Below, piece after piece: positions 27,853 to 52,145 of a DNA stretch of 64,000 bases (positions are counted from its first letter, which is position 1; the number at the start of each line of letters is the position of its first letter). Location of the stretch: contig JAUYHD010000016.1 of NCBI GenBank assembly GCA_030690215.1, positions 17,681 to 81,680 on the forward strand, read 5' to 3'. The position numbers and the translations under genes were made by a program. Source of the DNA: a bacterium. Lineage in GTDB: Bacteria; Patescibacteriota; Minisyncoccia; 1-14-0-10-42-19. Under the pieces are notes generated by a model. The model had not been told where the DNA came from. It ran no database searches and saw only the letters and a list, made by a program, of their open reading frames with translations.

Positions 27853-30800
27853 ATGAAAAAAAATCTGTTCGGGGTTCTGACACTTGGAATCCTGGTTATT
27901 GTATCAAGTTTCGTTTCTACATCCGATGTTGCCGTAGCAGCACCTGTCCCTGGCAGCATAACCGTGTTTGCTTCTGATACTGGTGTTAACGACGCAACCG
28001 TGGGTACGCGAATTTGGGGCAATCCTCAAAATGTTTCAAGCAGTGATGACGTGTCCGCCCAGGCAAACTTCATAGAGGACCAGGATTTGATTACGCGGTA
28101 TCTCCGCGTTGCTCCTCAATCACTATCTGCAATCCCCGCAGGAAGCACTATTACCGGCATACAAGTTAGCGTTGAAAAGAAAAGGGGGGCAGCGGTTACT
28201 GTTAGGGATTATTCTATACGCCTTTATAAATCGGCGGGTTTTATAGGAAACAACAAAGCCGATACTGGCACTAACTGGCCCGCGTCAGACCAAACCTTCA
28301 CGTATGGGGGGTCGGGAGACTTATGGGGCGCCACATGGACAAGAGACGAAGTAGTAAATAATTTGCAGGTTGGGATTTCCGCCCAAAATACTTTTAACGG
28401 AGGGGCAGGGGCCGTCATTGATTCTATTCAATTCACTATTTGGTATGAATACACTCCGCCCGCCCCAACCGTAATTGAAGCAGACAACACCGTGTTTGCT
28501 GCAACTACCGGCGTCAACGACACAACCGTGGGTACAAAAATTTGGGGTACTACCAATAATATCGCGGCAAGCGATGATGCGTACTCACAAGTAAACCTTT
28601 TGACAGGCGGAGATATATCAAGGTATCTCCGTGTTGCTCCGCAGTCACTTTCTTCAATTCCTGAAGGGAGCACAATTAAAGGCATACAAGTCAGCATTGA
28701 GAAAAGTAGAGGTACGCAATTTGTTAAAGATTATTCTATACGCCTCTACAAATCCGGAACGGGCTACATAGGCAGCGACAAAGCTAACACAAGCGTTAAC
28801 TGGCCTGCTTTAGATGAAATAGTTACCCATGGAGGTAATGGTGATTTGTGGGGGACCACATGGACCAGAGATGAAGTGGTTAATAATTTGGAAGTGGGAA
28901 TTTCCGCCCAAAACCAAACTACCACTTCAGCAGGAGCAAAGATCGATTCCATACAGTTTACTATTTGGTATGAATACACTCCGCCCGCCCCAACCGTTGA
29001 CCTAAAAGCAAACAGCGCCAACGGACCAATATCAATTGACTACAACACAGGTGCAACACTTTCGTGGGCTTCGACAAACGCAACATCGTGTGCCGCATCA
29101 AACGCATGGTCCGGAACAAAAGGCACATCAGGGTCAGAATCAACCGGAAATCTTACAGCATCAAAAACATACACGATAACGTGTACAGGGACAGGGGGAA
29201 GCGCAAATGATAGCGTTACAATAAATGTCCTCGCACCACCGCCCCCACCTCCTCCGCCACCGCCTCCTCCGCCTCCTCCGGCAACAACTGTATGCCAAGG
29301 CTCTGTAACTCTCTATCAACACATCAACTATATCGGTTATTCAGCGGGTTTTGATGTTGGCACCTACACCCTTGCACAACTTCAAGCATGCGGAGTTATT
29401 AACAACGACATATCTTCAATGAAGGTACCGAATGGCTACCAGGCAACGTTATATGATGGAGACAACTATTCAGGAATAAGTCTTACGCGAACTACTGACG
29501 ACAGCACATTGGTAGATGACGGGTTTAATGATTTAACTACATCGCTACGCGTAACAACCATTTCAACAACACCCACTCCTCCACCTCCGCCACCTCCATC
29601 GCCGGAACCTTCTCCAACTCCCCCACCGCCACCTCCTCCAACAAGCAACCTTGCTTTCCAAATTAATGACAAAATCCAAGTAACATCAGGACCTCTCAAT
29701 GTAAGAAGTTGCGCAAGCTTATCTTGCAACTCTCTTGGTATACAACCAACAGGTTCTTTGGGGTCAATTATCGGAGGCCCAACATTTGCAGATGGATTTT
29801 TCTGGTGGAATATCAATTACGATAACGCTCCGGATGGTTGGTCGGTTGAAAATTTCTTAACTCTCGTAACCTCAACTCCTCTACCACCTCCTCCACCGCC
29901 ACCGCCTCCAGCACCAGAACCTTCTCCAGCTCCACCGCCGCCACCTCCTCCAACAAGCAACCTTGCTTTCCAAATTAATGACCGTATTCAAGTAAACACA
30001 GGGAGCTCGGAATTTAATCTTAATGTCCGATCAACAGCAAATGGCACGATCGTTGGACAGCAATCAAACGGTGCGTTGGGAACTATTATCGGTGGGCCTC
30101 AAAGTGCTGGCAGCCACACATGGTGGAATGTTAATTTTGATGTAGCGCCTGATGGATGGGTTGCTGGAGATTTTCTTGTCACCAGTTCATCTCCTTCTCC
30201 AACACCTCCACCTCCGCCACCTCCTCCAGCACCGGAACCTTCTCCAACTCCCCCACCGCCACCTCCTCCAACAACAACCCTACTTTCTATTCCCGGAACC
30301 ATACAAGCAGAAAGCTATAAAGTAGGGGGCGAGGGTATTGGGTATCATGACACTACCCCAACAAACGATGGGGGCGCCGGGACTCGCAATGATGGAGTGG
30401 ATATAAAAGATGTCCCGGGTGAAGGTTTGACTATCGGATTTACAAATATCGGCGAATGGCTTGCATACGATGTAAGTGTCTCCCAAGGAGGGACATACTC
30501 TATTGATCTCCGCATCGCAAACGGAGAAACAACAAATCGTTCTCTCCACCTGGAAATAGACGGAACAAATAAAACCGGTTCGGTTACCGTGCCATCTACC
30601 GGATCATGGAACACACAAACAACTATTACAGTGCCCAATGTTTCCCTTACCCAAGGAACTCATGTATTGCGCGTTGTGTTTGACAATACCCCGCTTGATC
30701 TCAATTGGATGTTGTTTAATTTTGTTTCTTCCGGAAGTCCGTCTGCGCCTTCTGTGTCCACAAAATTCCAGATAAACGACCGCGTGCAAACAACAGACAA

Positions 30801-32835
30801 TCTTAATGTCCGCTCAATACCTTCAACTGTAACTGGGGTGGTGCTCGGCACGCACCAAACGGGATCACTCGGGACAATTATTGGCGGACCCGTTTTTGCA
30901 AACAATATTTGGTGGTGGCAAGTAAATTACGATAACAATCCTGACGGCTGGTCTGCTGAAAACTTTTTAACAAAATCAACAACGTCAGCACCACCGCCGC
31001 CGCCTCCTCCGACAACCATAGACATCAAAGCAAATAGCTCCGATGGACCAATATCCATTGCGTATAATTCAAGCGCAACACTTAGTTGGACTTCCTCAAA
31101 CACAACATCTTGCACCGCATCAAACGCATGGTCCGGAACAAAAAGCACATCGGGATCAGAATCAACCGGAAATCTTACGGAATCAAAAACATACACAATG
31201 ACCTGCACAGGAACTGGAGGAAGCGCAAATGACAGTGTCACGGTTAATGTAAATCCTCTGTCGACTCCTCCGCCTCCTCCCCCACCACCTCCATCTTCTA
31301 GCAATGAAGCACTCATATATGTAGATAATCAAAATTCCTCTGCTTCAGATTCTAACCCAGGAACAGTAACAAGCCCGCTAAGAACTATCGGCAAAGCCGC
31401 TCAACTAGCAAACTCAAAAAATAAGAGCGGAATTCCGGTACGAATTATTGTAAAAGCAGGCACATATCGAGAGTCGGTTGCATTCAATGATGAAACCGGC
31501 ATCACAACATCACCTATTACTATTGAGGGATCCCCCATCGGACAAGCAATTATTTCAGGATCAGATGTATGGACAGGATGGACTTCTACATCAGGTCTCT
31601 GGGTTCATGACTGGCCTTATGACTGGGGCGCGGTTTCCTGGCTTGGCGTACCCTCCGGAGAACTCGCAAGACGCCGCGAAATGGTATTCGTAAACGGTGA
31701 ACACTACATGCAAGCTCTTTCAACGGGAGAACTGACGGACAAAACCTTTTATGTAGATGAGGTCAACAATAAAATCTATGTAAAATCTTCCACCAATCTG
31801 AACACCTCAAAAGTAGAAGTCGGCACCCGGAAAGGAATATTCTATGCAAAGAATAGGCAAAACTTTACAATACGGGGCATGATATTCCAACACGATACCA
31901 CTGCCGGTGATTTATCTGGTGTTAATTTCGTCCTCATGAAAAACCTTGTCATAGAAGACAGTAAATTTTTGTGGAATAACTGGGGTGGGATGCAAATTAC
32001 AAGAGGTGAGGGAATTACCGTACGCAGACTCGTTGGTAATTATAATGGCGGGAAAGGAACAGAAATGGTGTTTAGCAAAAATGCCTTATGGGAAGATATA
32101 GAAAGTTCATATAACAACTGGCGCGGAGATTCGGGAGGGTTCAACCAATGGAGTGTCGCAGGTTCAAAGCACTTAAGGAACCGAGATGTTACATATCGTA
32201 ATTTTGTCGTCGCCAACAACAAAGCGAGAGGATTTTGGCTCGATTATGATAACTCTGGCATTGTTTTTGACGGTCTTATTTCTATTAATAATTATGAGAG
32301 CGGTATCTCTCTTGAAGCCAACCAGGGTCCGATACTTGTAAAAAATAGCGCAATCTGTGGGAACGGCGACTATGACGGAGTAAGAACCTCAACTTCATGG
32401 GGCGGACTTATTTCTGCAAACTCCATGAACATTACTATCCAGGATAGTGTTTTCTATCGGAACGTTGTTACTAATATTCGGACTCACGGAGCAAACATCC
32501 GACCGATCAACGATTTCGTAACAGGAGGGGTGCATGACGGAATATCGAAAAATTGGACATGGACGGGCATCGTTGATGTGGGCCAAGGCACAAATGAGTT
32601 GCTTGTGTATAGAGTAGATGACGCTACTGAATTTTTGGATACCCTTACGGTAAACAACAATATTTATTGGAACCCTACTGACCCAAATACATTCAATGCT
32701 AATGGGAGAACAGATTTTGCCGGATGGAAAACTAAAACCGGTCAAGAGCAAAACTCGGTATTTGCCGATCCAAATACTCTTTCTTTGACCAGCCAACAAA
32801 GAGCACTGCTAGACAGATGCATTGCTAGCTACTAA
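27853..32835 (+). CDS. Giant secreted multidomain surface protein (1660 aa). Signal peptide; 2x about 175-aa repeat; 2x Ig-like; poly-Pro linkers; beta/gamma-crystallin; 3x SH3b-like; CBM6-like; C-terminal right-handed beta-helix.
   Basis: Duplicated NxNGPISIxYNxxATLSWxSxNxTSCxASNAWSGTK Ig-like units (29000-29235, 31017-31255); Greek-key CQGSVTLYQHINYIGY...; CBM6-like LSIPGTIQAESYKVGGEGIGYHD...GEWLAYDV...LNWMLF; beta-helix NFTIRGMIFQHD... Confidence 0.7.
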   Translation: MKKNLFGVLTLGILVIVSSFVSTSDVAVAAPVPGSITVFASDTGVNDATVGTRIWGNPQNVSSSDDVSAQANFIEDQDLITRYLRVAPQSLSAIPAGSTITGIQVSVEKKRGAAVTVRDYSIRLYKSAGFIGNNKADTGTNWPASDQTFTYGGSGDLWGATWTRDEVVNNLQVGISAQNTFNGGAGAVIDSIQFTIWYEYTPPAPTVIEADNTVFAATTGVNDTTVGTKIWGTTNNIAASDDAYSQVNLLTGGDISRYLRVAPQSLSSIPEGSTIKGIQVSIEKSRGTQFVKDYSIRLYKSGTGYIGSDKANTSVNWPALDEIVTHGGNGDLWGTTWTRDEVVNNLEVGISAQNQTTTSAGAKIDSIQFTIWYEYTPPAPTVDLKANSANGPISIDYNTGATLSWASTNATSCAASNAWSGTKGTSGSESTGNLTASKTYTITCTGTGGSANDSVTINVLAPPPPPPPPPPPPPPPATTVCQGSVTLYQHINYIGYSAGFDVGTYTLAQLQACGVINNDISSMKVPNGYQATLYDGDNYSGISLTRTTDDSTLVDDGFNDLTTSLRVTTISTTPTPPPPPPPSPEPSPTPPPPPPPTSNLAFQINDKIQVTSGPLNVRSCASLSCNSLGIQPTGSLGSIIGGPTFADGFFWWNINYDNAPDGWSVENFLTLVTSTPLPPPPPPPPPAPEPSPAPPPPPPPTSNLAFQINDRIQVNTGSSEFNLNVRSTANGTIVGQQSNGALGTIIGGPQSAGSHTWWNVNFDVAPDGWVAGDFLVTSSSPSPTPPPPPPPPAPEPSPTPPPPPPPTTTLLSIPGTIQAESYKVGGEGIGYHDTTPTNDGGAGTRNDGVDIKDVPGEGLTIGFTNIGEWLAYDVSVSQGGTYSIDLRIANGETTNRSLHLEIDGTNKTGSVTVPSTGSWNTQTTITVPNVSLTQGTHVLRVVFDNTPLDLNWMLFNFVSSGSPSAPSVSTKFQINDRVQTTDNLNVRSIPSTVTGVVLGTHQTGSLGTIIGGPVFANNIWWWQVNYDNNPDGWSAENFLTKSTTSAPPPPPPPTTIDIKANSSDGPISIAYNSSATLSWTSSNTTSCTASNAWSGTKSTSGSESTGNLTESKTYTMTCTGTGGSANDSVTVNVNPLSTPPPPPPPPPSSSNEALIYVDNQNSSASDSNPGTVTSPLRTIGKAAQLANSKNKSGIPVRIIVKAGTYRESVAFNDETGITTSPITIEGSPIGQAIISGSDVWTGWTSTSGLWVHDWPYDWGAVSWLGVPSGELARRREMVFVNGEHYMQALSTGELTDKTFYVDEVNNKIYVKSSTNLNTSKVEVGTRKGIFYAKNRQNFTIRGMIFQHDTTAGDLSGVNFVLMKNLVIEDSKFLWNNWGGMQITRGEGITVRRLVGNYNGGKGTEMVFSKNALWEDIESSYNNWRGDSGGFNQWSVAGSKHLRNRDVTYRNFVVANNKARGFWLDYDNSGIVFDGLISINNYESGISLEANQGPILVKNSAICGNGDYDGVRTSTSWGGLISANSMNITIQDSVFYRNVVTNIRTHGANIRPINDFVTGGVHDGISKNWTWTGIVDVGQGTNELLVYRVDDATEFLDTLTVNNNIYWNPTDPNTFNANGRTDFAGWKTKTGQEQNSVFADPNTLSLTSQQRALLDRCIASY

Positions 32836-33960: not shown

Positions 33961-36192
33961 CTTTTTGAGAGTTTGATCCTAGCTCAGGATGAACGCTGGC
34001 GGCGTGGATAAGGCATGCAAGTCGTACGGTCGTGCCTCTCTATCGCTCAGCACTCCCTAAGCTCAAAGTGTAAAACGAAAAGTTCAAAACTAATGTGAAA
34101 TAATTTCAACAAAGTTGAAATTATTATTCCTCAGTTTTACGTTTTTATTTTTGAGTTTTTAGTTTGAGTGCCGAACGGCAGTGAGGCACGACAGTGGCAG
34201 ACGGGGTAGTAACACGTAGGTACATACCACTGAGACAAGAATAACCCAGAGAAATCTGGGATAATACTTGATAGTCTAGTGATCGATTTTCCCTCACAAG
34301 ATGTTTTAATTTTTAATTCTCAATTATCAATTTTCAATAAAAATTTGGAAATTGAAACTTTCTCGCCTCGCCGTAGCTTTAGCGAAGCGGAAACATTGTC
34401 CGCCAGAGGCGGATCCTCCTCCGGAGGAAAAATTCAAAACAGTCCTTGCGGGTAAAAATCGGTTACTAGTAAAGGTTCGTAAGAACCGCTCGGTGAATGG
34501 CCTGCGGGCTATCAGCTTGTTGGTGAGGTAACGGCTCACCAAGGCTATGACGGCTAGGGGGTGTGAGAGCATGGCCCCCACCAATGGAACTGAGACACGG
34601 TCCATACATCTACGGATGGCTGCAGTCGAGAATATTGGGCAATGGGCGAAAGCCTGACCCAGCGACGCCGCGTGCAGGATGAAGGCCTTCGGGCTGTAAA
34701 CTGCTTTTATGGGGGAGGAATCCCCTCCTTGAGGTTGAGTGTGGTACAATCACGCTATGTATTATGTATATATCCTGAAATTAAATAATGAAAAATTATA
34801 CATCGGATACACTGTGGATTTAAAAAGGCGTATTGTTGAACACGAAACAGGAATGAGTATGCATACTAAAAAATTTTTACCTTGCATGCTTGTTTATTAT
34901 GAAGCATACAAATCACGAAAAGATGCGATGAAGCGTGAGAAAAATCTAAAAAAATTCAAAAGTTCATACAGACAATTAAAAATACGTATTGCTTCAAGTA
35001 TATTCGACACCAAGGAGGGGATGACGTTACCCCATGAATAAGGGCTTGCTAACCTCGTGCCAGCAGCCGCGGTAATACGAGGGGCCCAAGCGTTATCCGG
35101 AATCACTGGGCGTAAAGGGTTCGTAGGGGGTTGTATTAGTCCTATGTTAAAGCCTTCGGCTTAACCGAAGAAATGCATAGGAAACGGTATAACTGGAGGG
35201 TGTGAGAGGCTGATGGAACTCACGGTGTAGGGGTGAAATCCGTTGATATCGTGGGGAACACCAAATGCGAAGGCAATCAGCTGGCGCATTCCTGACCCTG
35301 AAGAACGAAAGCGTGGGGATCGAAAAGGATTAGATACCCTTGTAGTCCACGCCCTAAACGTTGATGACTAGCTATTGGAAGTATCGACCCTTCCAGTGGC
35401 GTAGCTAACGCGTTAAGTCATCCGCCTGGGAATTACGATCGCAAGATTAAAACTCAAAGGAATAGACGGGGACTCGCACAAGCGGTGGAGCATGTGGTTC
35501 AATTCGATGATAAGCGAAAAACCTTACCAGGGCTAGAAATTCTAGTGAAGTCGACCCGAAAGGGACGATGTCTCACAAGGACACTAGGACAGGTGCTGCA
35601 TGGTTGTCGTCAGTTCGTGGTTTGAACTGTTCCCTTAAGTGGGTCAACGAACGCAACCCCCGTTGCCTGTTATACATGTCAGGCAAGACTGCCCCTCACT
35701 TTGCGCACAAGCGCAAAGTGAGTTTACTAGTTACGCCTTGCTCTAGTTTGCTAGTTTAAATTTTACAACTAGAAAACTAAAGTGAGCAGAGCGAACGTAA
35801 CTAGAAAACTCACTTTGTTCGTTTGCGAACAAAGTGAGGGGAGGAAGGTGGGGATGACGCCAAATCAGCATGGCCCTCGACGTCCTGGGCTACACACATG
35901 CTACAATGGCACGTACAAAGGGCCGCAAAAGAGCAATCTGGAGCAAATCCCATCAAAACGTGCCCTAGTTCGGATTGAGGTCTGCAACTTGACCTCATGA
36001 AGCTGGAATCGCTAGTAATCGCAGATCAGCACGCTGCGGTGAATACGTTCTCGAGTCTTGTACTCACCGCCCGTCAAGTCAGGGAAGTCGGGAGTACCCG
36101 AAGTGCCAGGTATCTGGCCCGAAGGTAAGCTCGATAACAAGGACTAAGTCGTAACAAGGCACGGCTAGCGGAAGCTGGTCGTGGATCATTAT
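33961..36192 (+). rRNA. 16S rRNA gene, about 2.23 kb, with four insertions. (a) 34063-34170 hairpin element; (b) about 34275-34480 V2 expansion; (c) about 34720-35020 GIY-YIG ORF; (d) about 35694-35848 palindromic insertion. The 3' end is ...GGATCATTATCT and lacks CCUCC.
   Basis: Conserved blocks AGAGTTTGATCCTAGCTCAG, GTGCCAGCAGCCGCGGTAATAC, GGATTAGATACCCTTGTAGTCC, GCATGTGGTTCAATTCGATG, TACACACCGCCCGTCA, AAGTCGTAACAAGG read in order. Confidence 0.9.
34757..35041 (+). CDS. GIY-YIG nuclease-family ORF embedded in the 16S rRNA V3 insertion (possible intron-encoded homing endonuclease)
   Basis: MYYVYILKLNNEKLYIGYTVDLKRRIVEHETG is a canonical GIY-YIG motif; the ORF 3' end runs into the conserved TGACGTTACC rRNA sequence. 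Confidence 0.7.
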   Translation: MYYVYILKLNNEKLYIGYTVDLKRRIVEHETGMSMHTKKFLPCMLVYYEAYKSRKDAMKREKNLKKFKSSYRQLKIRIASSIFDTKEGMTLPHE

Positions 36193-36338
36193 CTAAACTA
36201 TTTCCGATATTCATTTGATTTTTATCAAAAGAAGAAGCGGAACAGTTAGGCGATACTCCCACTGGGAGTAATAGGTGTTAGTCGCGGAGCCTTTAAATCG
36301 CGACTTGAACGGAGCAAAAGAAAACGCACATACACAAA

Positions 36339-46583: not shown

Positions 46584-47930
46584 CTACAATGTACACTTCG
46601 GCATCTTCCATTCTTTGACCATGGCATCAACCGCCGCTTGCCCCATCGCTGTTTTTACCCCTTTTTCAAAATTGCACAATGCTATGCGGGGCCCCTTCAC
46701 AAGCCCGGGAATACTTAATGCCGAAAAGAGATTTTTCATTTTAGCTGTCCCGTATTTATTGTGGAGCCCATCAAGCACCACCGCCATAATGTCCCATGGG
46801 ATTATTTCCGTATCATTCCTTTTCACCGTCTTGCCCGCATTCGTATCAATATACACATCAAGCAATGTCAAAGAGAAATCGCTCTTGAACGCCGCGACCT
46901 CTTTTGAAAATCCGGGAAAGTTATTATTAGTCGCGAATACATTAACGCCTACCGCGCGCCCGCACCGAAGAGCCGTATAATGAGGAGTAAACGCTCCCGG
47001 ATAAAGCACGTCCATATGATCATAAAATGGGAATTTCGTTCCTCTGCCCATCTCGTAATACGCTATCCAATGATCCCCCGGATTTGTAATATCAAATTGA
47101 TTCCATACGCTCTGGAGAATCTCTGCTTTCATACCCGCACCGCACCCTGCACCGCACGTGGTCGGCGCAACCCCAACTATCGCCGTCTTTACCCCGCGAT
47201 GATCGTCAAAATAAGGGCCCGCAACCGAACCATAGAGCGTGGTATATGTTTGCCTACATACCGCATACCACTTCATAAACCTAGTAACATCTCCCAGTGA
47301 ATATTTGCTTGTGGGTGGCGCGTAGAATGAGACAAGCGGCAACGAATAACCATGTCGGGTAAATGTCCCTTTGTGCCCATCATATGTGACTATTCCATGG
47401 TCTTTAGCAAGCCCCGCTGTCGTATTTGAAGGTGGAGGCGGGGTCACGGTAGAAGAAAACGATTCTACTTTCATAGAAGACATCTTGTCGTTCCATCCAT
47501 CGTCTACCAATGTTGAATCACCTACGGTCCGCTTGATTGAAGCTCCGCCAAAATTATCAAGATTATACAAAATAACACGATACCCCGACGGAACCCGAAA
47601 GGAAGAAATTGTATTATTTGAAATCCCACACGCTTTGAGTTTTGCGAGCGTGTATTCTCCTGGGCCGAATCCTGCCGAAGCCCCCTTAAAATTGATATCT
47701 ACATACACTCGTACTGGGCCGTTACATACCTTCAATGAGGGTTGCTCTATAGCTGACGGGAATGAAAATCTAAGGAACCAAGGTACGGCCGAGTAATTAA
47801 ATGGACCATTAAAATTCATCTGAATAAAAATGCTGATCCCTATCAAGACAGAAAATGCAAAAAAAACAAGCGTGTGTTTCCCCGTATTTTTAATATTTTT
47901 ATCCAAAAATTTTTTTAGCGCCTTGAACAT
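46584..47930 (-). CDS. Secreted/membrane-anchored protein with a beta/gamma-crystallin domain paralogous to that of the giant protein, plus a 290-aa C-terminal domain of unknown function
   Basis: VCNGPVRVYVDINFKGASAGFGPGEYTLAKLKACGISNNTISSFRVPSGYRVILYNLDNFGGASIKRTVGDSTLVDDGWND against giant-protein ...DDSTLVDDGFND. Confidence 0.55.
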   Translation of the reverse strand: MFKALKKFLDKNIKNTGKHTLVFFAFSVLIGISIFIQMNFNGPFNYSAVPWFLRFSFPSAIEQPSLKVCNGPVRVYVDINFKGASAGFGPGEYTLAKLKACGISNNTISSFRVPSGYRVILYNLDNFGGASIKRTVGDSTLVDDGWNDKMSSMKVESFSSTVTPPPPSNTTAGLAKDHGIVTYDGHKGTFTRHGYSLPLVSFYAPPTSKYSLGDVTRFMKWYAVCRQTYTTLYGSVAGPYFDDHRGVKTAIVGVAPTTCGAGCGAGMKAEILQSVWNQFDITNPGDHWIAYYEMGRGTKFPFYDHMDVLYPGAFTPHYTALRCGRAVGVNVFATNNNFPGFSKEVAAFKSDFSLTLLDVYIDTNAGKTVKRNDTEIIPWDIMAVVLDGLHNKYGTAKMKNLFSALSIPGLVKGPRIALCNFEKGVKTAMGQAAVDAMVKEWKMPKCTL

Positions 47931-47951: not shown

Positions 47952-48575
47952 CTATATAAACTTACCGCAAAATGAGCGCCTATGGATGTCGCATAATCCG
48001 TACTTTCTTAGGGCTTTTTCATGTGCTCGTGTGCCGTACCCTTTATGAATATCAAAACCGTATTTGGGGTAAACTTTTGCAAGACGCACCATTCTCCTAT
48101 CGCGCGTTACTTTTGCCATGATTGAAGCGGCGGCAATAATAGGCATCCGCCTATCTCCTCCTATAATAGTCTGCTGATTTTTGTATTCTTGAGGCGCTCG
48201 TAACCCTCCGTCTAATAAAATACGGGAATTATGAATCAAGAATCTAGAATCAAGAAGCGCTATTTTTCTTAACGAACGACGAATCGCAAGATGAGTTGCT
48301 CTCGCAATGCCAATCTTATCAATCACCGAATGGCTTACCGAAGAAGTAGCATAAAACAATCTATTCTCACGCGAATGCCTGCGCAAAACCTTAAACCATT
48401 CTTCCCGCTTCTTAACCGAAAGCGCCTTGGAATCTTTAATTCCCCTAAACAGTTTCGAATTTCGTGCTTCATATTTCGAATTTACCATTGTCGCTACTGC
48501 GCAAATGGTTATCGGTCCCGCGAGCGGTCCTCTCCCCACTTCGTCTATACCGAGAATAAATCTATGCTTTGCCAT
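47952..48575 (-). CDS. rnhB: Ribonuclease HII
   Basis: ILGIDEVGRGPLAGP motif; start set at MAKHRF. Confidence 0.85.
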   Translation of the reverse strand: MAKHRFILGIDEVGRGPLAGPITICAVATMVNSKYEARNSKLFRGIKDSKALSVKKREEWFKVLRRHSRENRLFYATSSVSHSVIDKIGIARATHLAIRRSLRKIALLDSRFLIHNSRILLDGGLRAPQEYKNQQTIIGGDRRMPIIAAASIMAKVTRDRRMVRLAKVYPKYGFDIHKGYGTRAHEKALRKYGLCDIHRRSFCGKFI

Positions 48576-48638
48576 TGTTTTTATTATACCACCCATGCTA
48601 TTCTCAAGAATGAAATTGAAAATACAGAAGGAGGAAAA

Positions 48639-49019
48639 GTGCAGAAATTTTCGAAAGAATCCATTGAAAAAATGGTGAAGACAAAATCCCAAGAGATACA
48701 AAAGAAATGGGAACAGCCGGCAAAACCCCCAAAGCTATGGGGAACCATAATGCTTCAGATGTTCCATAGAGCGCATATCATTGTTAATAATCTTGGCCTT
48801 TGTAAAAATCCGGTTTCTCTCACGGCGAATGTCGCACTAATTATTACCGACCTGCACATGGAATTTTCGGGGAAGGTCCCGTCAGACGAAGATGAATTTA
48901 AAAAGGCTATCAAAAAAACCACAAGAAAATGGGCAAAACAGGGCAGTAAAAAGAGATTCTGCCATGGAACTACTACTGGCCTTGTCTGTTATTGTGACGA
49001 AAAGGAGACGAATAGATGA
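48639..49019 (+). CDS. Small Cys/His-motif protein, paralog 1 (126 aa; C-terminal KKRFCHGTTTGLVCYCDE)
   Basis: GTG start with AGGAGG 5 nt upstream; shares the MxKF N-terminus and C-H-x7-C-x-C-D-E tail with 49016-49396 and 50037-50414. Confidence 0.5.
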   Translation: MQKFSKESIEKMVKTKSQEIQKKWEQPAKPPKLWGTIMLQMFHRAHIIVNNLGLCKNPVSLTANVALIITDLHMEFSGKVPSDEDEFKKAIKKTTRKWAKQGSKKRFCHGTTTGLVCYCDEKETNR

Positions 49020-49396
49020 AAAAATTTACAACCTCATGGCTTAATCAGGAAGCAAAAAAGCTCCCTCAAGAAACGCAAGATGGGTGGAAAGCAGAATGGC
49101 CGCCCGAATCATTTGATGCACTGTTAGAAGAAACAAAGAAACGGATAGAGATTGTTGCTGATCTTACAGGGTGCGCTTCCCGGGACATAATGATACAAGA
49201 AGCAACAGAGGTAATAGAAACGCTACGACAGCAATACAACGATCAAATACCCGTAGACGGCATCGAAACATTTGATGTTGTGGCAAGCGGGATATCCCGA
49301 AAAATCGCCAAGGAATACGAAGACAAAAAGCTCTGCCATGGCGCCCCCGAATATATGCTGTGTTTCTGTGACGAAAAACAAGGAGACGCAATTTGA
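49016..49396 (+). CDS. Small Cys/His-motif protein, paralog 2 (126 aa; KKLCHGAPEYMLCFCDE)
   Basis: ATGA overlap with the upstream gene; clear homology to paralog 3 (KLPQ, WPPESFD(A/T)LL, RIVA.L.GC, AKEYxxK(K/R)LCH...CFCDE). Confidence 0.55.
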   Translation: MKKFTTSWLNQEAKKLPQETQDGWKAEWPPESFDALLEETKKRIEIVADLTGCASRDIMIQEATEVIETLRQQYNDQIPVDGIETFDVVASGISRKIAKEYEDKKLCHGAPEYMLCFCDEKQGDAI

Positions 49397-50025
49397 AAAT
49401 TAAATTATCGCCCGAAGAAGAAACAACGCTCAAGACGTATGCAAAAATGGCAAAAAACAGAAATAAGCAAATCGGCGGTCAGCCATTTGACCCCGATTTT
49501 TGGGCCGACCAATTTGAAGAATTCAAACGGCTTTTACCCGCAGGAAATATTCTTGAAATCGGTTGTGGAAACGGCAGGGATGCGCGATTTTTCTGCAAAG
49601 ACACCGAATATAATTATTTTGGGATTGATGCCTGCCAGGGACTGCTTGATGAAGCAAAAATATGGGCGCCAAACGCAAACACGCATCAAATGAACCTCTA
49701 TTCGCTTTTCTTTCCGGATCATTCCTTTGACGGCTTTTGGGCGGCATCGGTATATGTCCACATCCCCCGAACGACTATCATGCGGGCGCTTGCTGAATTA
49801 AAACGCGTAATAAAGCCCGAAGGCATAGGATTTGTCGTTATGCGCGAAGGCAAAGGAGAAACAACGCCCCAAGACAAAAAAACGGGACTTAAGCGTTTTT
49901 ACGCCCTTTATCCGGACGATGAATTCAGCGATATTCTTTTATGGTCCGGATTTGAAATAATATCAAAATCAAAAGACACAAGAAACAAGCCCGAACTTAT
50001 ATATTTTGTGCGGACATGGATGTGA
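49393..50025 (+). CDS. Class I SAM-dependent methyltransferase
   Basis: Motif I ILEIGCGNGRDARFF; post-I acidic residue; overlaps the stop of paralog 2 (TTGA) and the start region of paralog 3. Confidence 0.65.
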   Translation: MKIKLSPEEETTLKTYAKMAKNRNKQIGGQPFDPDFWADQFEEFKRLLPAGNILEIGCGNGRDARFFCKDTEYNYFGIDACQGLLDEAKIWAPNANTHQMNLYSLFFPDHSFDGFWAASVYVHIPRTTIMRALAELKRVIKPEGIGFVVMREGKGETTPQDKKTGLKRFYALYPDDEFSDILLWSGFEIISKSKDTRNKPELIYFVRTWM

Positions 50026-50036
50026 GGGAAAAACAG

Positions 50037-50414
50037 ATGAAAGAATACACAAACGGGTGGTTTGACCAGCAGGTAGAAAAACTTCCCCAGCATATACAAG
50101 ACATCTGGAACAAATGGACCTGGCCACCCGAATCGTTTGATACGCTTTTGAAAGACGCCCAGGAACGCGCACGCATTGTCGCCTACCTTGTAGGATGCAA
50201 CAGCCTAGACACATTACTACAAAACATGCTGGACATAACCGAAAGTCTGCGGAATCTATACAAAAACAAGATACCGCAAACGACTGAGGAGTTGCTCGTA
50301 TTCCGACAAATGATAATGGACGTAGTGGACATGTTCGCAAAAGAGTACCAAGAAAAACGCCTATGCCACGACGGATTCGGATATGCGGTGTGTTTCTGCG
50401 ACGAAATACAATAA
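50037..50414 (+). CDS. Small Cys/His-motif protein, paralog 3 (125 aa; KRLCHDGFGYAVCFCDE)
   Basis: Start at MKEYTNGW, which aligns with paralog 2's MKKFTTSW; GAGGG SD upstream. Confidence 0.55.
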   Translation: MKEYTNGWFDQQVEKLPQHIQDIWNKWTWPPESFDTLLKDAQERARIVAYLVGCNSLDTLLQNMLDITESLRNLYKNKIPQTTEELLVFRQMIMDVVDMFAKEYQEKRLCHDGFGYAVCFCDEIQ

Positions 50415-50587
50415 CCAAAAGAGCCCCACGGGCTCTTTTTTGTGCCTGCTTGCAGGACACACCCCATTAGATAGAGCCCAAAAAAATCGCTCATCTAACG
50501 GGGTGAGGGTACTCATTCCGCCATTATTTTCCGCATACTAAAAGTGCCCCAGATTATCAAAAAATGATACAATAAAAAAATATCATC

Positions 50588-51556
50588 ATGTCTATGGAAC
50601 AGAACAAAGAAAAAGAGGAATTTTCTCCTCCGCGCTCTGCTGAACTTCTGCAGAGATTTGAAGAAAAAGAAGCTCCCCCCATCGGGGAGAAGTTGCGGTT
50701 TTCAGGCGTCGGCGAAAAAGATGTATATAATATCTCGCCACCTTTCCGGATTGGGAACGCAACCGTTATCGCCGGGCGCGTTGAGGCACGAAAGGCATGG
50801 GCGGATTCCCAGGTTCTCTTTTTTGAAGAAAAGAAAGACGTATGGGTTCCGGCCAACGGCGCGCCAACCTTACAATTGGAAGACGGTTTCGCAACACGCT
50901 TCAAAGACGAAACGATTATCGGCGGTGTTGAGGTGTACCCCCATCCCTTTGTGTCCGGTGGCGTTGGCTACCGAACAGTTTTTTATCGCGGACACGATTT
51001 TTCATCACTTAAAAAATTCGCTGCCGGTCCGGACATGATGAAAGATATCCGGCTTACCCCTCTTGCAAACGAGCAAATAGGCGTCTTCACGCGCCCTCAA
51101 GGCGGGAGTAATGGGAAAGGCACGATAGGATATACGGAGCTACAGCACCTGGAGGATCTAAACGCAGAGAATATCCTTAATGCGAAAATAATTGAGAATC
51201 AATTCGCTCCTGAAGAATGGGGCGGCGCAAATGAATTGCATCCGTTACAAAATGGCAAAATCGGCGTCATTGGACACATTGCCTATCAAGAAGCAGAAAA
51301 CAATAAGCATTACTACGCAATGTCATTCGTGTATGACCCTCATACGCATCACGCTTCCCCAATTGAGATTATCGCAACGAGAAAAAACTTCCCCGCAGGT
51401 GACGCAAAAAAATCAGAGCTTGAAGATGTTATTTTCCCCGGCGGTTTGATCCGCCACGGCGACGGTACTGCAACACTCTATGCGGGTTTGAGTGATGCAG
51501 AAACCGGAAAACTCACCCTGCCAGATCCCTTTGCCGCAGAAGAAAAACATAGTTAA
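50588..51556 (+). CDS. Conserved hypothetical protein (possibly beta-propeller glycosidase/phosphorylase-like; uncertain)
   Basis: 322-aa ORF; Gly/aromatic-rich repeats. Confidence 0.35.
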   Translation: MSMEQNKEKEEFSPPRSAELLQRFEEKEAPPIGEKLRFSGVGEKDVYNISPPFRIGNATVIAGRVEARKAWADSQVLFFEEKKDVWVPANGAPTLQLEDGFATRFKDETIIGGVEVYPHPFVSGGVGYRTVFYRGHDFSSLKKFAAGPDMMKDIRLTPLANEQIGVFTRPQGGSNGKGTIGYTELQHLEDLNAENILNAKIIENQFAPEEWGGANELHPLQNGKIGVIGHIAYQEAENNKHYYAMSFVYDPHTHHASPIEIIATRKNFPAGDAKKSELEDVIFPGGLIRHGDGTATLYAGLSDAETGKLTLPDPFAAEEKHS

Positions 51557-51605
51557 CCCCATTGAATTACTAAAATAGAAAAAATGATATGATGGAAGTC
51601 ATTAA

Positions 51606-52145
51606 ATGAAAAATCTTTTAAAAAAATACGAAGCTGGAAAAACCAACAAACAAATTTTGGCGAACAGAGCAATTGCGCGTGCCGAATCTTGCCTTAATTT
51701 TTTAGACGAATGTCTCCAGCTGGTTCATAGGGGCAGCGGAACCGACCCTGCCTATTCTCGATCAATATATATTTTATTTTCTTATAGTTTTGAGCTAATC
51801 TTAAAATCCCGCTTATTACTAGCAAGCAAACAGGTGGAAAGAGACGATTTAATAAAAGAAATTAAATCTCACGACCTTGAAAAATTATCAAAAAAACTTT
51901 CAAAAACTGAATTAAATAACATTAGTATAAAAAATATCAAAAAACAAAAAACTTTAAATTTTGAAGAATATAAAATAGAAATGACCGGAGGGGGCGATTT
52001 TATTATCCAAGATCTAACTGATGTTCGGTATGATTTTGCAAAAGATAACCTCCGTAATAATAATCTGGATGAGTGGAACCAATTGCAAGAAATGAAAGAG
52101 GTTATGTTTTACATGATAAAATTCATTAGAGAAATGATAAAATAA
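51606..52145 (+). CDS. Hypothetical protein, markedly AT-rich gene abutting dnaE
   Basis: 179-aa ORF; Lys/Asn/Ile-rich; GC clearly below neighbours. Confidence 0.35.
   Translation: MKNLLKKYEAGKTNKQILANRAIARAESCLNFLDECLQLVHRGSGTDPAYSRSIYILFSYSFELILKSRLLLASKQVERDDLIKEIKSHDLEKLSKKLSKTELNNISIKNIKKQKTLNFEEYKIEMTGGGDFIIQDLTDVRYDFAKDNLRNNNLDEWNQLQEMKEVMFYMIKFIREMIK

What the first reader, a model, noticed from the sequence alone, without database searches (positions are those of the whole stretch)
48639..50414. Translationally coupled operon of three paralogous 125-aa proteins with a C-H-x7-C-x-C-D-E tail and an embedded SAM-dependent methyltransferase
Four genes are packed with overlapping stop and start codons (ATGA, TTGA) in the order paralog1, paralog2, methyltransferase, paralog3. 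Paralogs 2 and 3 align along their whole length (MKxxTxxW, KLPQ, WPPESFD, RIVAxLxGC, AKEYxxKxLCHxxxxYxxCFCDE). Paralog 1 keeps the N-terminus and the Cys/His tail. Four conserved Cys plus one His suggest a metal-binding module. The methyltransferase may methylate one of the small proteins or a shared substrate. No protein family I recognise matches. Conserved triplication plus tight coupling suggests a functional system rather than decay.
Basis: partly seen in the sequence, partly recalled or inferred. Interest (0 to 1): 0.7.

Follow-up and report, generated by a model that had tools for sequence, protein, structure and literature searches.

The report
Orphan cysteine-rich protein trio with methyltransferase
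A groundwater candidate-phyla bacterium carries one operon with three old copies of a very rare, uncharacterised small protein that probably binds a metal through four cysteines, plus a methyltransferase that only some relatives have, so the family is real and new but its function is unknown.

Summary
Four co-directional genes occupy 48639-50414: par1 (126 aa), par2 (126 aa), a class I SAM methyltransferase (210 aa) and par3 (125 aa). Two junctions are ATGA and TTGA overlaps. The third is an 11-nt gap. The paralogs are homologous along their whole length (E 1e-38 to 1e-16) and under purifying selection (dN/dS about 0.2).

The family is real and tiny: about 15 sequence clusters in billions of proteins, mostly from groundwater metagenomes, and one is annotated Candidatus Niyogibacteria. 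No Pfam, NCBIfam, PHROG, PADLOC or PDB sequence match was found, and no PDB or viral fold match (the AlphaFold database was not searchable). AlphaFold models are confident (pLDDT 93 and 91). They show a helical bundle capped by a small sheet, not a zinc ribbon. Invariant residues are C53, C107, H108, C116 and C118, which fits a metal site.

The triplication is not conserved. Three related loci each show one paralog type beside rnhB, behind the same conserved promoter core, which suggests differential loss from an older array. The methyltransferase link is facultative. The orthologous enzyme appears in only one other contig, a TrmO-type methyltransferase follows tandem paralogs in a third, and the best-sampled syntenic locus has none.

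Best guess, at low confidence: a metal-binding accessory protein for methyltransferases.

The parts
48597..48605 (+). Extended -10 promoter-like element TGCTATTCT in the 63-nt rnhB/par1 divergent intergenic region
   Evidence: The TGCTAT core is invariant in the upstream regions of four loci that carry different paralog types. It lies about 35 nt before the start codon. Its function as a promoter is inferred.
48639..49019 (+). par1: 126 aa, GTG start, basic (pI 9.7), the most divergent paralog
   Evidence: ORF and sequence. BLASTP to par2 and par3 gives E 9e-16 and 2e-16. Its ortholog P0012 is 59% identical and starts at the same position. The AlphaFold model has pLDDT 91.1 and the same topology as par2.
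49016..49396 (+). par2: 126 aa, acidic (pI 4.6). Its ATG overlaps the par1 stop codon (ATGA).
   Evidence: Its ortholog P0002 is 76% identical with dN/dS 0.18. The AlphaFold model has pLDDT 93.3 and pTM 0.85.
49393..50025 (+). Class I SAM-dependent methyltransferase, 210 aa. Its TTG start overlaps the par2 stop codon (TTGA).
   Evidence: Methyltransf_25 E 1.3e-16 and Methyltransf_11 E 6.4e-16. Motif I is EIGCGNG (read). The ortholog in L002 is 59% identical and is again followed by a par3-type gene.
50037..50414 (+). par3: 125 aa, acidic (pI 4.7), 11 nt after the methyltransferase stop codon
   Evidence: It is 43% identical to par2. Orthologs are P0005 (62%) and P0006 (55%, Candidatus Niyogibacteria PIR69463.1).
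50417..50439 (.). Intrinsic terminator hairpin (AAAAGAGCCCCACGGGCTCTTTT) right after par3, flanked by an A-run and a T-run
   Evidence: and direct reading. Near-identical hairpins follow the family genes in L001, and a different hairpin with a T-run follows the family gene in L002.
50442..50460 (+). Second conserved hairpin (GTGCCTGC-TT-GCAGGACAC) immediately after the terminator
   Evidence: The pattern occurs once in the window, with 0 expected by chance. It is also present in L002 after the par3-type gene and in L001 upstream of the par2-type gene. Its role is unknown.

Best explanation
**Shown**
- The locus is one transcription unit with a conserved extended -10 promoter, four coupled genes and a terminator.
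- It encodes three anciently diverged paralogs of a lineage-restricted orphan protein family, plus a class I SAM methyltransferase (MT) embedded between paralogs 2 and 3.

**Strongly inferred**
- Each paralog is a soluble cytoplasmic protein of about 125 aa.
- The predicted fold is an N-terminal strand, five to six helices and a C-terminal hairpin that pairs with the N-terminal strand.
- A metal ion (Zn2+ or an Fe-S centre) is held by C53, C107, C116 and C118. C53 lies in the loop between helices 3 and 4. C107 lies just after the last long helix. C116 and C118 lie on the hairpin. H108 and D119 sit beside them.

**Inferred, low confidence**
- The proteins have no catalytic signature of their own.
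- They act as metal-stabilised accessory subunits (adaptor, stabiliser or substrate-presenting partner) for SAM-dependent methyltransferases. This is functionally comparable to Trm112, although they are not related to it.
- In this genome the partner enzyme is encoded inside the array. In relatives with a single copy, the partner would be encoded elsewhere.
- The three paralogs are partly redundant. Related loci keep one type each beside rnhB, behind the same promoter core.
For: - **Operon anatomy:**
- **Homology and purifying selection:**
- **Invariant Cys4+His:** seen across 15 members, and every Cys in the window paralogs is an invariant one.
- **Confident models:** both have the same topology. 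C53 and C107 are placed at the same end of an up-down bundle next to the C116/C118 hairpin. The spatial proximity is inferred from topology, because no coordinates were available.
- **MT coupling in the window:** TTGA overlap on one side and an 11-nt gap on the other.
- **MT-par3 adjacency in L002:** kept at about 60% protein identity with saturated synonymous sites.
- **Independent case in L017:** a TrmO_N methyltransferase (E 2.3e-25) starts 19 nt after two tandem family genes.
- **L018:** another class I MT lies in the divergent rnhB operon two genes away.
- **Rough enrichment estimate:** 2 of about 10 immediate same-strand non-paralog neighbours are methyltransferases. I assumed a background of about 2-3% of genes, which gives a binomial p of about 0.03. 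This is my own estimate, not a tool result.
- **Ancient paralogs with differential retention:** each type groups with orthologs from other samples at 100% bootstrap. The same upstream region precedes different paralog types in different genomes.
Against: - No MT lies within 10 kb on either side of the single-copy gene in the Niyogibacteria contigs.
- No MT ortholog is present in any other fetched locus.
- No recognisable MT lies beside P0007 in six contigs.
- The par2-type gene in L001 stands alone, with a terminator-like hairpin on each side.
- The associated methyltransferases belong to two unrelated folds (class I and TrmO). One common binding mode is therefore not expected.
- The number of independent contexts is small (about 10), and most contigs are short.
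- Metal binding is inferred from conservation only.
Confidence: 0.3

Rival explanations
1. A stand-alone small metalloprotein (structural zinc, Fe-S or thiol-redox) whose role has nothing to do with methylation. The methyltransferase would be a passenger gene that landed in a variable spot between rnhB and dnaE.
For: - Single-copy family genes occur without any MT in the syntenic Niyogibacteria locus and in the P0007 contigs.
- The interval between rnhB and dnaE differs between genomes. DUF1861 and a GC-poor 179-aa ORF are present here and absent there.
- L001 shows a rearrangement at this locus.
- Neighbours elsewhere are heterogeneous: GIY-YIG, HTH and hypothetical proteins.
Against: - The MT sits inside the array with translational coupling on its upstream side.
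- The adjacency to par3 has survived to about 60% identity in L002.
- A second, unrelated methyltransferase type follows tandem paralogs in L017.
Confidence: 0.3
2. The small proteins are the substrates, or methyl acceptors, of the adjacent methyltransferase. The enzyme would methylate a metal-activated cysteine thiolate, His108 or the Asp/Glu that follows the C-x-C.
For: - Gene adjacency and coupling.
- Invariant nucleophilic residues cluster in the tail.
- From my own knowledge: zinc-thiolates are established methyl acceptors, for example the Ada N-terminal domain.
Against: - The same absence of an MT in most contexts.
- Glu120 is not conserved and Asp119 is Asn or Ala in some members.
- The MT resembles small-molecule and lipid methyltransferases in the PDB, such as phosphoethanolamine N-methyltransferase at E 2e-8, rather than protein methyltransferases.
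Confidence: 0.12
3. A metal- or redox-sensing transcription regulator that controls the divergent rnhB/par promoter. It would be an all-helical sensor in the manner of CsoR, RcnR or FrmR.
For: - The divergent arrangement with rnhB is conserved in three lineages across a 63-69 nt intergenic region (window, L010 and L018). Part of that region is more conserved than the coding sequence, at about 90% between the window and L010.
- The predicted fold is an all-helical bundle with Cys/His.
Against: - There is no DNA-binding motif and no Pfam regulator hit.
- pI ranges from 4.6 to 9.7 within the family.
- Members outside this lineage are not next to rnhB.
- The whole neighbourhood from SMC to dnaE is syntenic, so the adjacency may simply be inherited.
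Confidence: 0.1
4. Precursors of ribosomally synthesised peptides (a Cys-rich C-terminal core after a long leader), with the methyltransferase as tailoring enzyme. Alternatively, a toxin-antitoxin or defence module.
For: - Tandem paralogs with a Cys-rich C-terminus next to a methyltransferase.
- The MT hits the PADLOC model mad2 at E 3e-17.
Against: - The whole chain, including the tail, is predicted as one compact fold at pLDDT above 90. The tail hairpin pairs with the N-terminal strand.
- One invariant Cys lies mid-protein.
- No protease, cyclase, transporter or immunity gene is nearby.
- No PADLOC or PHROG hit exists for the small proteins, and the mad2 hit covers only the generic MT domain.
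- No relatives were found in viral contigs.
Confidence: 0.03

Closest known systems
Trm112 (COG2835, Pfam Trm112p): small zinc-knuckle activator of class I methyltransferases
   Same: Both are small non-catalytic proteins with four Cys. In both, N- and C-terminal strands come together around a helical insert, as in eukaryotic Trm112. Genes for both are sometimes found beside methyltransferase genes. The proposed role as accessory subunit is the same.
   Different: - No sequence match.
- No CxxC knuckles.
- The model has two short strands and five to six helices, not an N-terminal helix plus a four-stranded antiparallel sheet (the latter from PMC6144793).
- One associated enzyme is a TrmO-type MT, not class I.
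- This is an analogy only, not membership.
C_GCAxxG_C_C family of putative redox-active small helical proteins (Pfam PF09719)
   Same: Both are small, helical and uncharacterised, and both are defined by a few invariant Cys that include a G-C motif. From memory and unverified: a member of that family lies next to the 'DVU_1556 family methyltransferase', which is the best, far sub-threshold, NCBIfam hit of the window MT.
   Different: - No Pfam or NCBIfam hit for any of the 15 members.
- The order and spacing of the motifs differ: G-C ... C-H-x7-C-x-C here, against C ... GCAxxG ... C ... C there.
- A literature search for the DVU locus tags returned nothing.
Generic class I SAM methyltransferases of the Methyltransf_11/25 type (for the embedded enzyme only)
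   Same: The domain matches above the gathering scores, and the G-x-G-x-G motif I is present. Length and layout resemble small-molecule or lipid methyltransferases and the uncharacterised RPA2492 (PDB 3e23).
   Different: No equivalog-level assignment. DVU_1556 scores 45 bits against a cut-off of 155, and UbiE, BioC, TehB and ArsM are all far below their cut-offs. Outside motif I, no Cys is conserved between the two orthologs, so it is not ArsM-like.

Membership tests
Trm112 / Trm112p (PF03966, COG2835) | Sequence match to the family profile | tested here: not met
   No Trm112p hit for the three window paralogs at E up to 1, or for the 15 members at E up to 10.
Trm112 / Trm112p (PF03966, COG2835) | Zinc-knuckle fold: a small N-terminal helix plus a four-stranded antiparallel beta-sheet (PMC6144793) | tested here: not met
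Trm112 / Trm112p (PF03966, COG2835) | Physical complex with a class I methyltransferase through a beta-zipper to strand beta3 | not testable with these tools
C_GCAxxG_C_C (PF09719 / TIGR01909) | Profile match and the motif order C, G-C-A-x-x-G, C, C | tested here: not met
   No Pfam or NCBIfam hit. The alignment shows G-C53, then C107-H108, then C116-x-C118, with no N-terminal Cys and no GCAxxG.
CDGSH iron-sulfur domain (PF09360) | C-X-C-X2-(S/T)-X3-P-X-C-D-G-(S/A/T)-H signature and a profile match | tested here: not met
   No Pfam hit. The order of motifs here is C-H-x7-C-x-C-D-E. The signature itself is recalled from my own knowledge.
Class I SAM-dependent methyltransferase (embedded gene) | Rossmann-like MT domain profile above the gathering score, with a G-x-G-x-G SAM-binding motif I | tested here: met
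   Methyltransf_25 scores 61.4 bits (cut-off 27) and Methyltransf_11 scores 59.2 bits (cut-off 21.2). The motif is LEIGCGNG.
DVU_1556 family methyltransferase (NF045667) | Score at or above the curated equivalog cut-off | tested here: not met
   45.3 bits against a cut-off of 155.
ArsM-type arsenite methyltransferase | Conserved As(III)-binding cysteines in the enzyme (own knowledge) and a profile score above the cut-off | tested here: not met
   The ArsM-related NCBIfam models score 14-26 bits against cut-offs of 240-575. Only the motif I Cys is conserved between the two MT orthologs.
RiPP precursor peptide | Disordered or separable leader plus core, with a dedicated maturation protease, cyclase or transporter nearby | tested here: not met
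   The whole chain folds as a single domain with pLDDT above 90. The neighbours are rnhB, DUF1861, a hypothetical protein and dnaE.
The new family itself (working definition) | 115-140 aa; start M-[KR]-x-[FYI]; mid G/N-C(-x-C); C-terminal C-H-x7-11-C-[FY]-C | tested here: met
   All three window paralogs and 12 proteins from other samples fit. A profile search of 1.84 billion cluster representatives returned only family members plus two repeat-protein artefacts.

The most novel reading that the evidence does not exclude
The family is a previously unseen class of small metal-thiolate adaptor proteins in candidate-phyla-radiation bacteria. They would pair with structurally unrelated SAM methyltransferases (class I and TrmO-type), either as activating or targeting subunits or as metal-centred methyl acceptors. 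That would make them a bacterial functional counterpart of Trm112 built on a different fold. The three-paralog array would give one enzyme three alternative partners or specificities.
Probability: 0.2. Interest if true: 0.65.

Novelty: categorically new. Interest (0 to 1): 0.4.

Why it matters
If the proteins really are metal-dependent partners of methyltransferases, this would be a second, independently evolved solution to the Trm112 problem: a small hub protein that stabilises or directs methyltransferases. It would sit in organisms with minimal genomes, where every retained gene family is informative.

Even without that, the locus gives a clean, testable orphan family:
- The models are confident, and no solved relative exists by sequence or by fold.
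- The residue signature is fully defined.
- Three paralogs have been retained differentially.

The caveat is that uncharacterised lineage-specific small proteins are very common in these bacteria. The family is extremely rare (about 15 sequence clusters), and nothing here shows a function. General interest is therefore moderate.

Tried and rejected
- **Known-family searches:** Pfam, NCBIfam, PHROGs and PADLOC on the paralogs, and on all 15 members except PADLOC, gave nothing consistent. The weak DUF496/TmaR hits (E 0.008-0.013, two members) are coiled-helix noise.
- **PDB sequence profile searches:** these returned only de novo helical bundles at E 0.035 or worse.
- **Two apparent large relatives:** P0008 (3842 aa) and P0010 (812 aa) from the representative search are repeat proteins (Ig-like and KH repeats) that match short stretches. 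I rejected both.
- **Collection scans:** the genome scan found only a partial, probably spurious Acidobacteriaceae match, and the metagenome scan found only loci already known. Two viral scans found nothing.
- **Literature:** searches for GCAxxG and the DVU_1555/1556 locus tags gave no usable link.
- **Horizontal transfer:** GC content of the cluster (0.41-0.45) matches its flanks, so I found no sign of recent transfer.
- **Extra copies:** a family HMM against six-frame ORFs found no further copies in the window.
- **Readings rejected:** RiPP precursor, toxin-antitoxin or defence module, ArsM-like enzyme, CDGSH domain and zinc ribbon (see the membership table).
Full report
**1. What is in the sequence**

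Four co-directional ORFs fill 48639-50414:
- par1: 48639-49019, GTG start, 126 aa.
- par2: 49016-49396, ATG start, 126 aa.
- A methyltransferase (MT): 49393-50025, TTG start, 210 aa.
- par3: 50037-50414, ATG start, 125 aa.

The MT/par3 junction is an 11-nt gap. It would be an overlap only if the in-frame ATG at 50016 were used, which is unlikely because all family members start M-[KR]-x-[FYI]-[ST]. Each start is preceded by a Shine-Dalgarno-like GGAG at 5-8 nt.

A hairpin followed by a T-run sits at 50417-50439, three bases after the par3 stop codon. No terminator-like hairpin lies at any gene junction; the scan flags one weak 6-bp hairpin inside the MT gene (49477-49492), which I take as chance because the total (7 sites) is close to the shuffled expectation of 4.8.

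rnhB lies upstream on the other strand. Comparison with relatives suggests that its true start is 48575 (MAKHRF...). That leaves a 63-nt divergent intergenic region.

**2. More than chance, and real genes**

- par2 and par3 are 43% identical (E 1e-38). par1 matches both along its whole length (E 9e-16 and 2e-16).
- Against orthologs from other samples, dN/dS is 0.18 (par2/P0002), 0.21 (par3/P0005) and 0.26 (MT/L002 MT).
- The GC content of the cluster equals that of its flanks.
- The embedded enzyme is a class I SAM methyltransferase: Methyltransf_25 and Methyltransf_11, E about 1e-16, above the gathering scores. It reaches no equivalog-level assignment. Its nearest solved relatives are small-molecule and lipid methyltransferases and the uncharacterised RPA2492.

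**3. The family**

- A word-indexed search of 5.8 billion protein clusters with par2 found only itself and one relative.
- Profile searches of the same collection and of 1.84 billion cluster representatives brought the total to about 15 clusters. Two large 'hits' are repeat-protein artefacts.
- Most come from groundwater metagenomes. One (PIR69463.1) is annotated Candidatus Niyogibacteria, which belongs to the candidate phyla radiation.
- In the 15-member alignment the invariant residues are M1, C53, C107, H108, C116 and C118. P30 and D119 are nearly invariant. E120 is not conserved. The core signature is therefore G-C ... C-H-x7-11-C-[FY]-C.
- Each window paralog has exactly four Cys, and these are the invariant ones.
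- No Pfam, NCBIfam, PHROG, PADLOC or PDB-sequence match exists.

**4. Structure**

- AlphaFold2 with the 15-sequence alignment gives pLDDT 93.3 and pTM 0.85 for par2, and pLDDT 91.1 and pTM 0.81 for par1. Both have the same topology: strand 2-5, helices 6-13, 18-24, 33-51, 56-73 and 80-103, strand 113-116, and a short C-terminal helix.
- C53 lies in the loop after helix 3. C107-H108 lie just after the last long helix. C116 and C118 lie on the C-terminal hairpin, which presumably pairs with the N-terminal strand.
- In an up-down bundle these positions fall at the same end. One Cys4 (possibly plus His) metal site is therefore the natural reading. This is inferred, because no coordinates were available.
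- It is not a zinc ribbon or treble clef.

**5. Context in relatives**

- **Niyogibacteria contigs.** These are syntenic with the window: SMC, RNase III, NusB-NUDIX, L32..., rnhB, X..., dnaE. They carry a single par3-type gene at X and no methyltransferase within 10 kb on either side.
- **L018.** It has a single par1-type gene beside rnhB. A non-orthologous class I MT lies behind rnhB.
- **L001.** It has a single par2-type gene with a terminator-like hairpin on each side.
- **L002.** It has the orthologous MT (59% identical) followed by a par3-type gene and a terminator.
- **L017.** It has a truncated paralog, then P0011, then a TrmO-type methyltransferase 19 nt downstream.
- **Other members.** They sit next to GIY-YIG, HTH or hypothetical genes.

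A neighbour-joining tree groups par1, par2 and par3 each with orthologs from other samples at 100% bootstrap. The duplications therefore predate the divergence of these genomes.

The upstream region carries an invariant TGCTAT, which reads as an extended -10 element, about 35 nt before the start in all four rnhB-linked loci. The window and L010 share a near-identical 55-nt stretch even though par1 follows in one and a par3-type gene in the other. L018 and L001 share another version, followed by par1-type and par2-type genes respectively.

The simplest reading is an ancestral array that lost different members in different lineages. The window keeps the full set.

**6. Mechanism**

- **Shown:** the operon, the paralogy, purifying selection, the invariant Cys4+His, a confident helical fold, and the absence of any known relative.
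- **Inferred strongly:** a metal site that staples the C-terminal hairpin and the helix 3-4 loop to the bundle.
- **Inferred weakly (about 0.3):** the proteins are accessory partners of SAM methyltransferases.
  - *For:* the MT is embedded and coupled, its adjacency to par3 survives at about 60% identity, and an unrelated methyltransferase type follows tandem paralogs elsewhere.
  - *Against:* most contexts lack a methyltransferase, the two enzyme folds differ, and the sample is small.
- **About equally likely (0.3):** a metalloprotein that does not depend on any methyltransferase, with the enzyme as a passenger in a variable locus.
- **Less likely:** substrate or methyl acceptor (0.12), and a metal- or redox-sensing regulator of the divergent promoter (0.1).
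- **Disfavoured:** RiPP precursor or defence module (0.03).

**7. Comparison with known systems**

Trm112 is the closest functional analogue. It is a small Zn-Cys4 protein that activates class I methyltransferases. Every defining feature I could test fails: profile match, CxxC knuckles and the four-stranded zinc-knuckle fold. The comparison is an analogy, not membership.

C_GCAxxG_C_C proteins share the idea of a small helical protein with a few invariant Cys. They share neither the motifs nor a profile match. The MT itself is an ordinary member of the class I superfamily.

**8. Verdict**

The small proteins form a new orphan family by sequence and by comparison with solved structures. The 'three paralogs plus methyltransferase system' is specific to this lineage and is not a conserved module.

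Interest is moderate (0.4). The family is well defined and testable, but orphan small proteins are common in candidate-phyla genomes and no function is demonstrated.

Noticed in passing
window 33961-36196 (+): The bacterial 16S rRNA match spans 2236 nt for a 1533-position model, which implies about 700 nt of insertion inside the gene. An ORF of 140 aa lies at 34327-34749 on the minus strand within that span. From my own knowledge, such insertions are typical of candidate-phyla-radiation rRNA genes.
   Followed up: no
window 50438-50464; L002 982-1008; L001 421-447: A conserved element, TTTTGTGCCTGC..GCAGGACACACCC (a second hairpin), follows the terminator after the par3-type genes. In L001 it lies upstream of the par2-type gene, together with a copy of the terminator. 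It occurs once in the window, with 0 expected by chance. Its role is unknown.
   Followed up: partly
L001 100-577: About 400 nt separate rnhB from the par2-type gene. This stretch holds a terminator copy and, at about 480-510, what looks like a remnant of an rnhB 5' end (MKKSKFT...) plus the conserved promoter region. That points to a duplication or rearrangement at this locus.
   Followed up: partly
window 48575-48701 (-): The start of rnhB is ambiguous. The longest ORF starts with TTG at 48701 and a gene caller chose 48596. The alignment with L010 supports ATG at 48575 (MAKHRFILGIDEVGRG), because L010 lacks the upstream ATG.
   Followed up: partly
window 50588-52145 (+): A DUF1861 protein (322 aa, E 3e-113) and a GC-poor (0.33) 179-aa hypothetical ORF lie between the cluster and dnaE. 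The syntenic Niyogibacteria locus has only an 83-aa minus-strand ORF there. The rnhB-dnaE interval is therefore a hotspot of gene gain and loss.
   Followed up: partly
L020 3780-4049; L021 2981-3100: Small GIY-YIG nuclease genes lie next to family members of the P0011 subgroup in two different samples. The one in L020 is intact and the one in L021 is a fragment. An HNH gene lies two genes upstream of P0007 in L005.
   Followed up: partly
window 46584-47930 (-): A 448-aa protein with an N-terminal hydrophobic segment and a beta/gamma-crystallin domain (E 4e-8) lies downstream of rnhB. A 511-aa protein with no Pfam hit occupies the same position in the Niyogibacteria locus.
   Followed up: no
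window 27853-32835 (+): A very large ORF of 1660 aa lies just upstream of the 16S rRNA gene. It was not examined.
   Followed up: no
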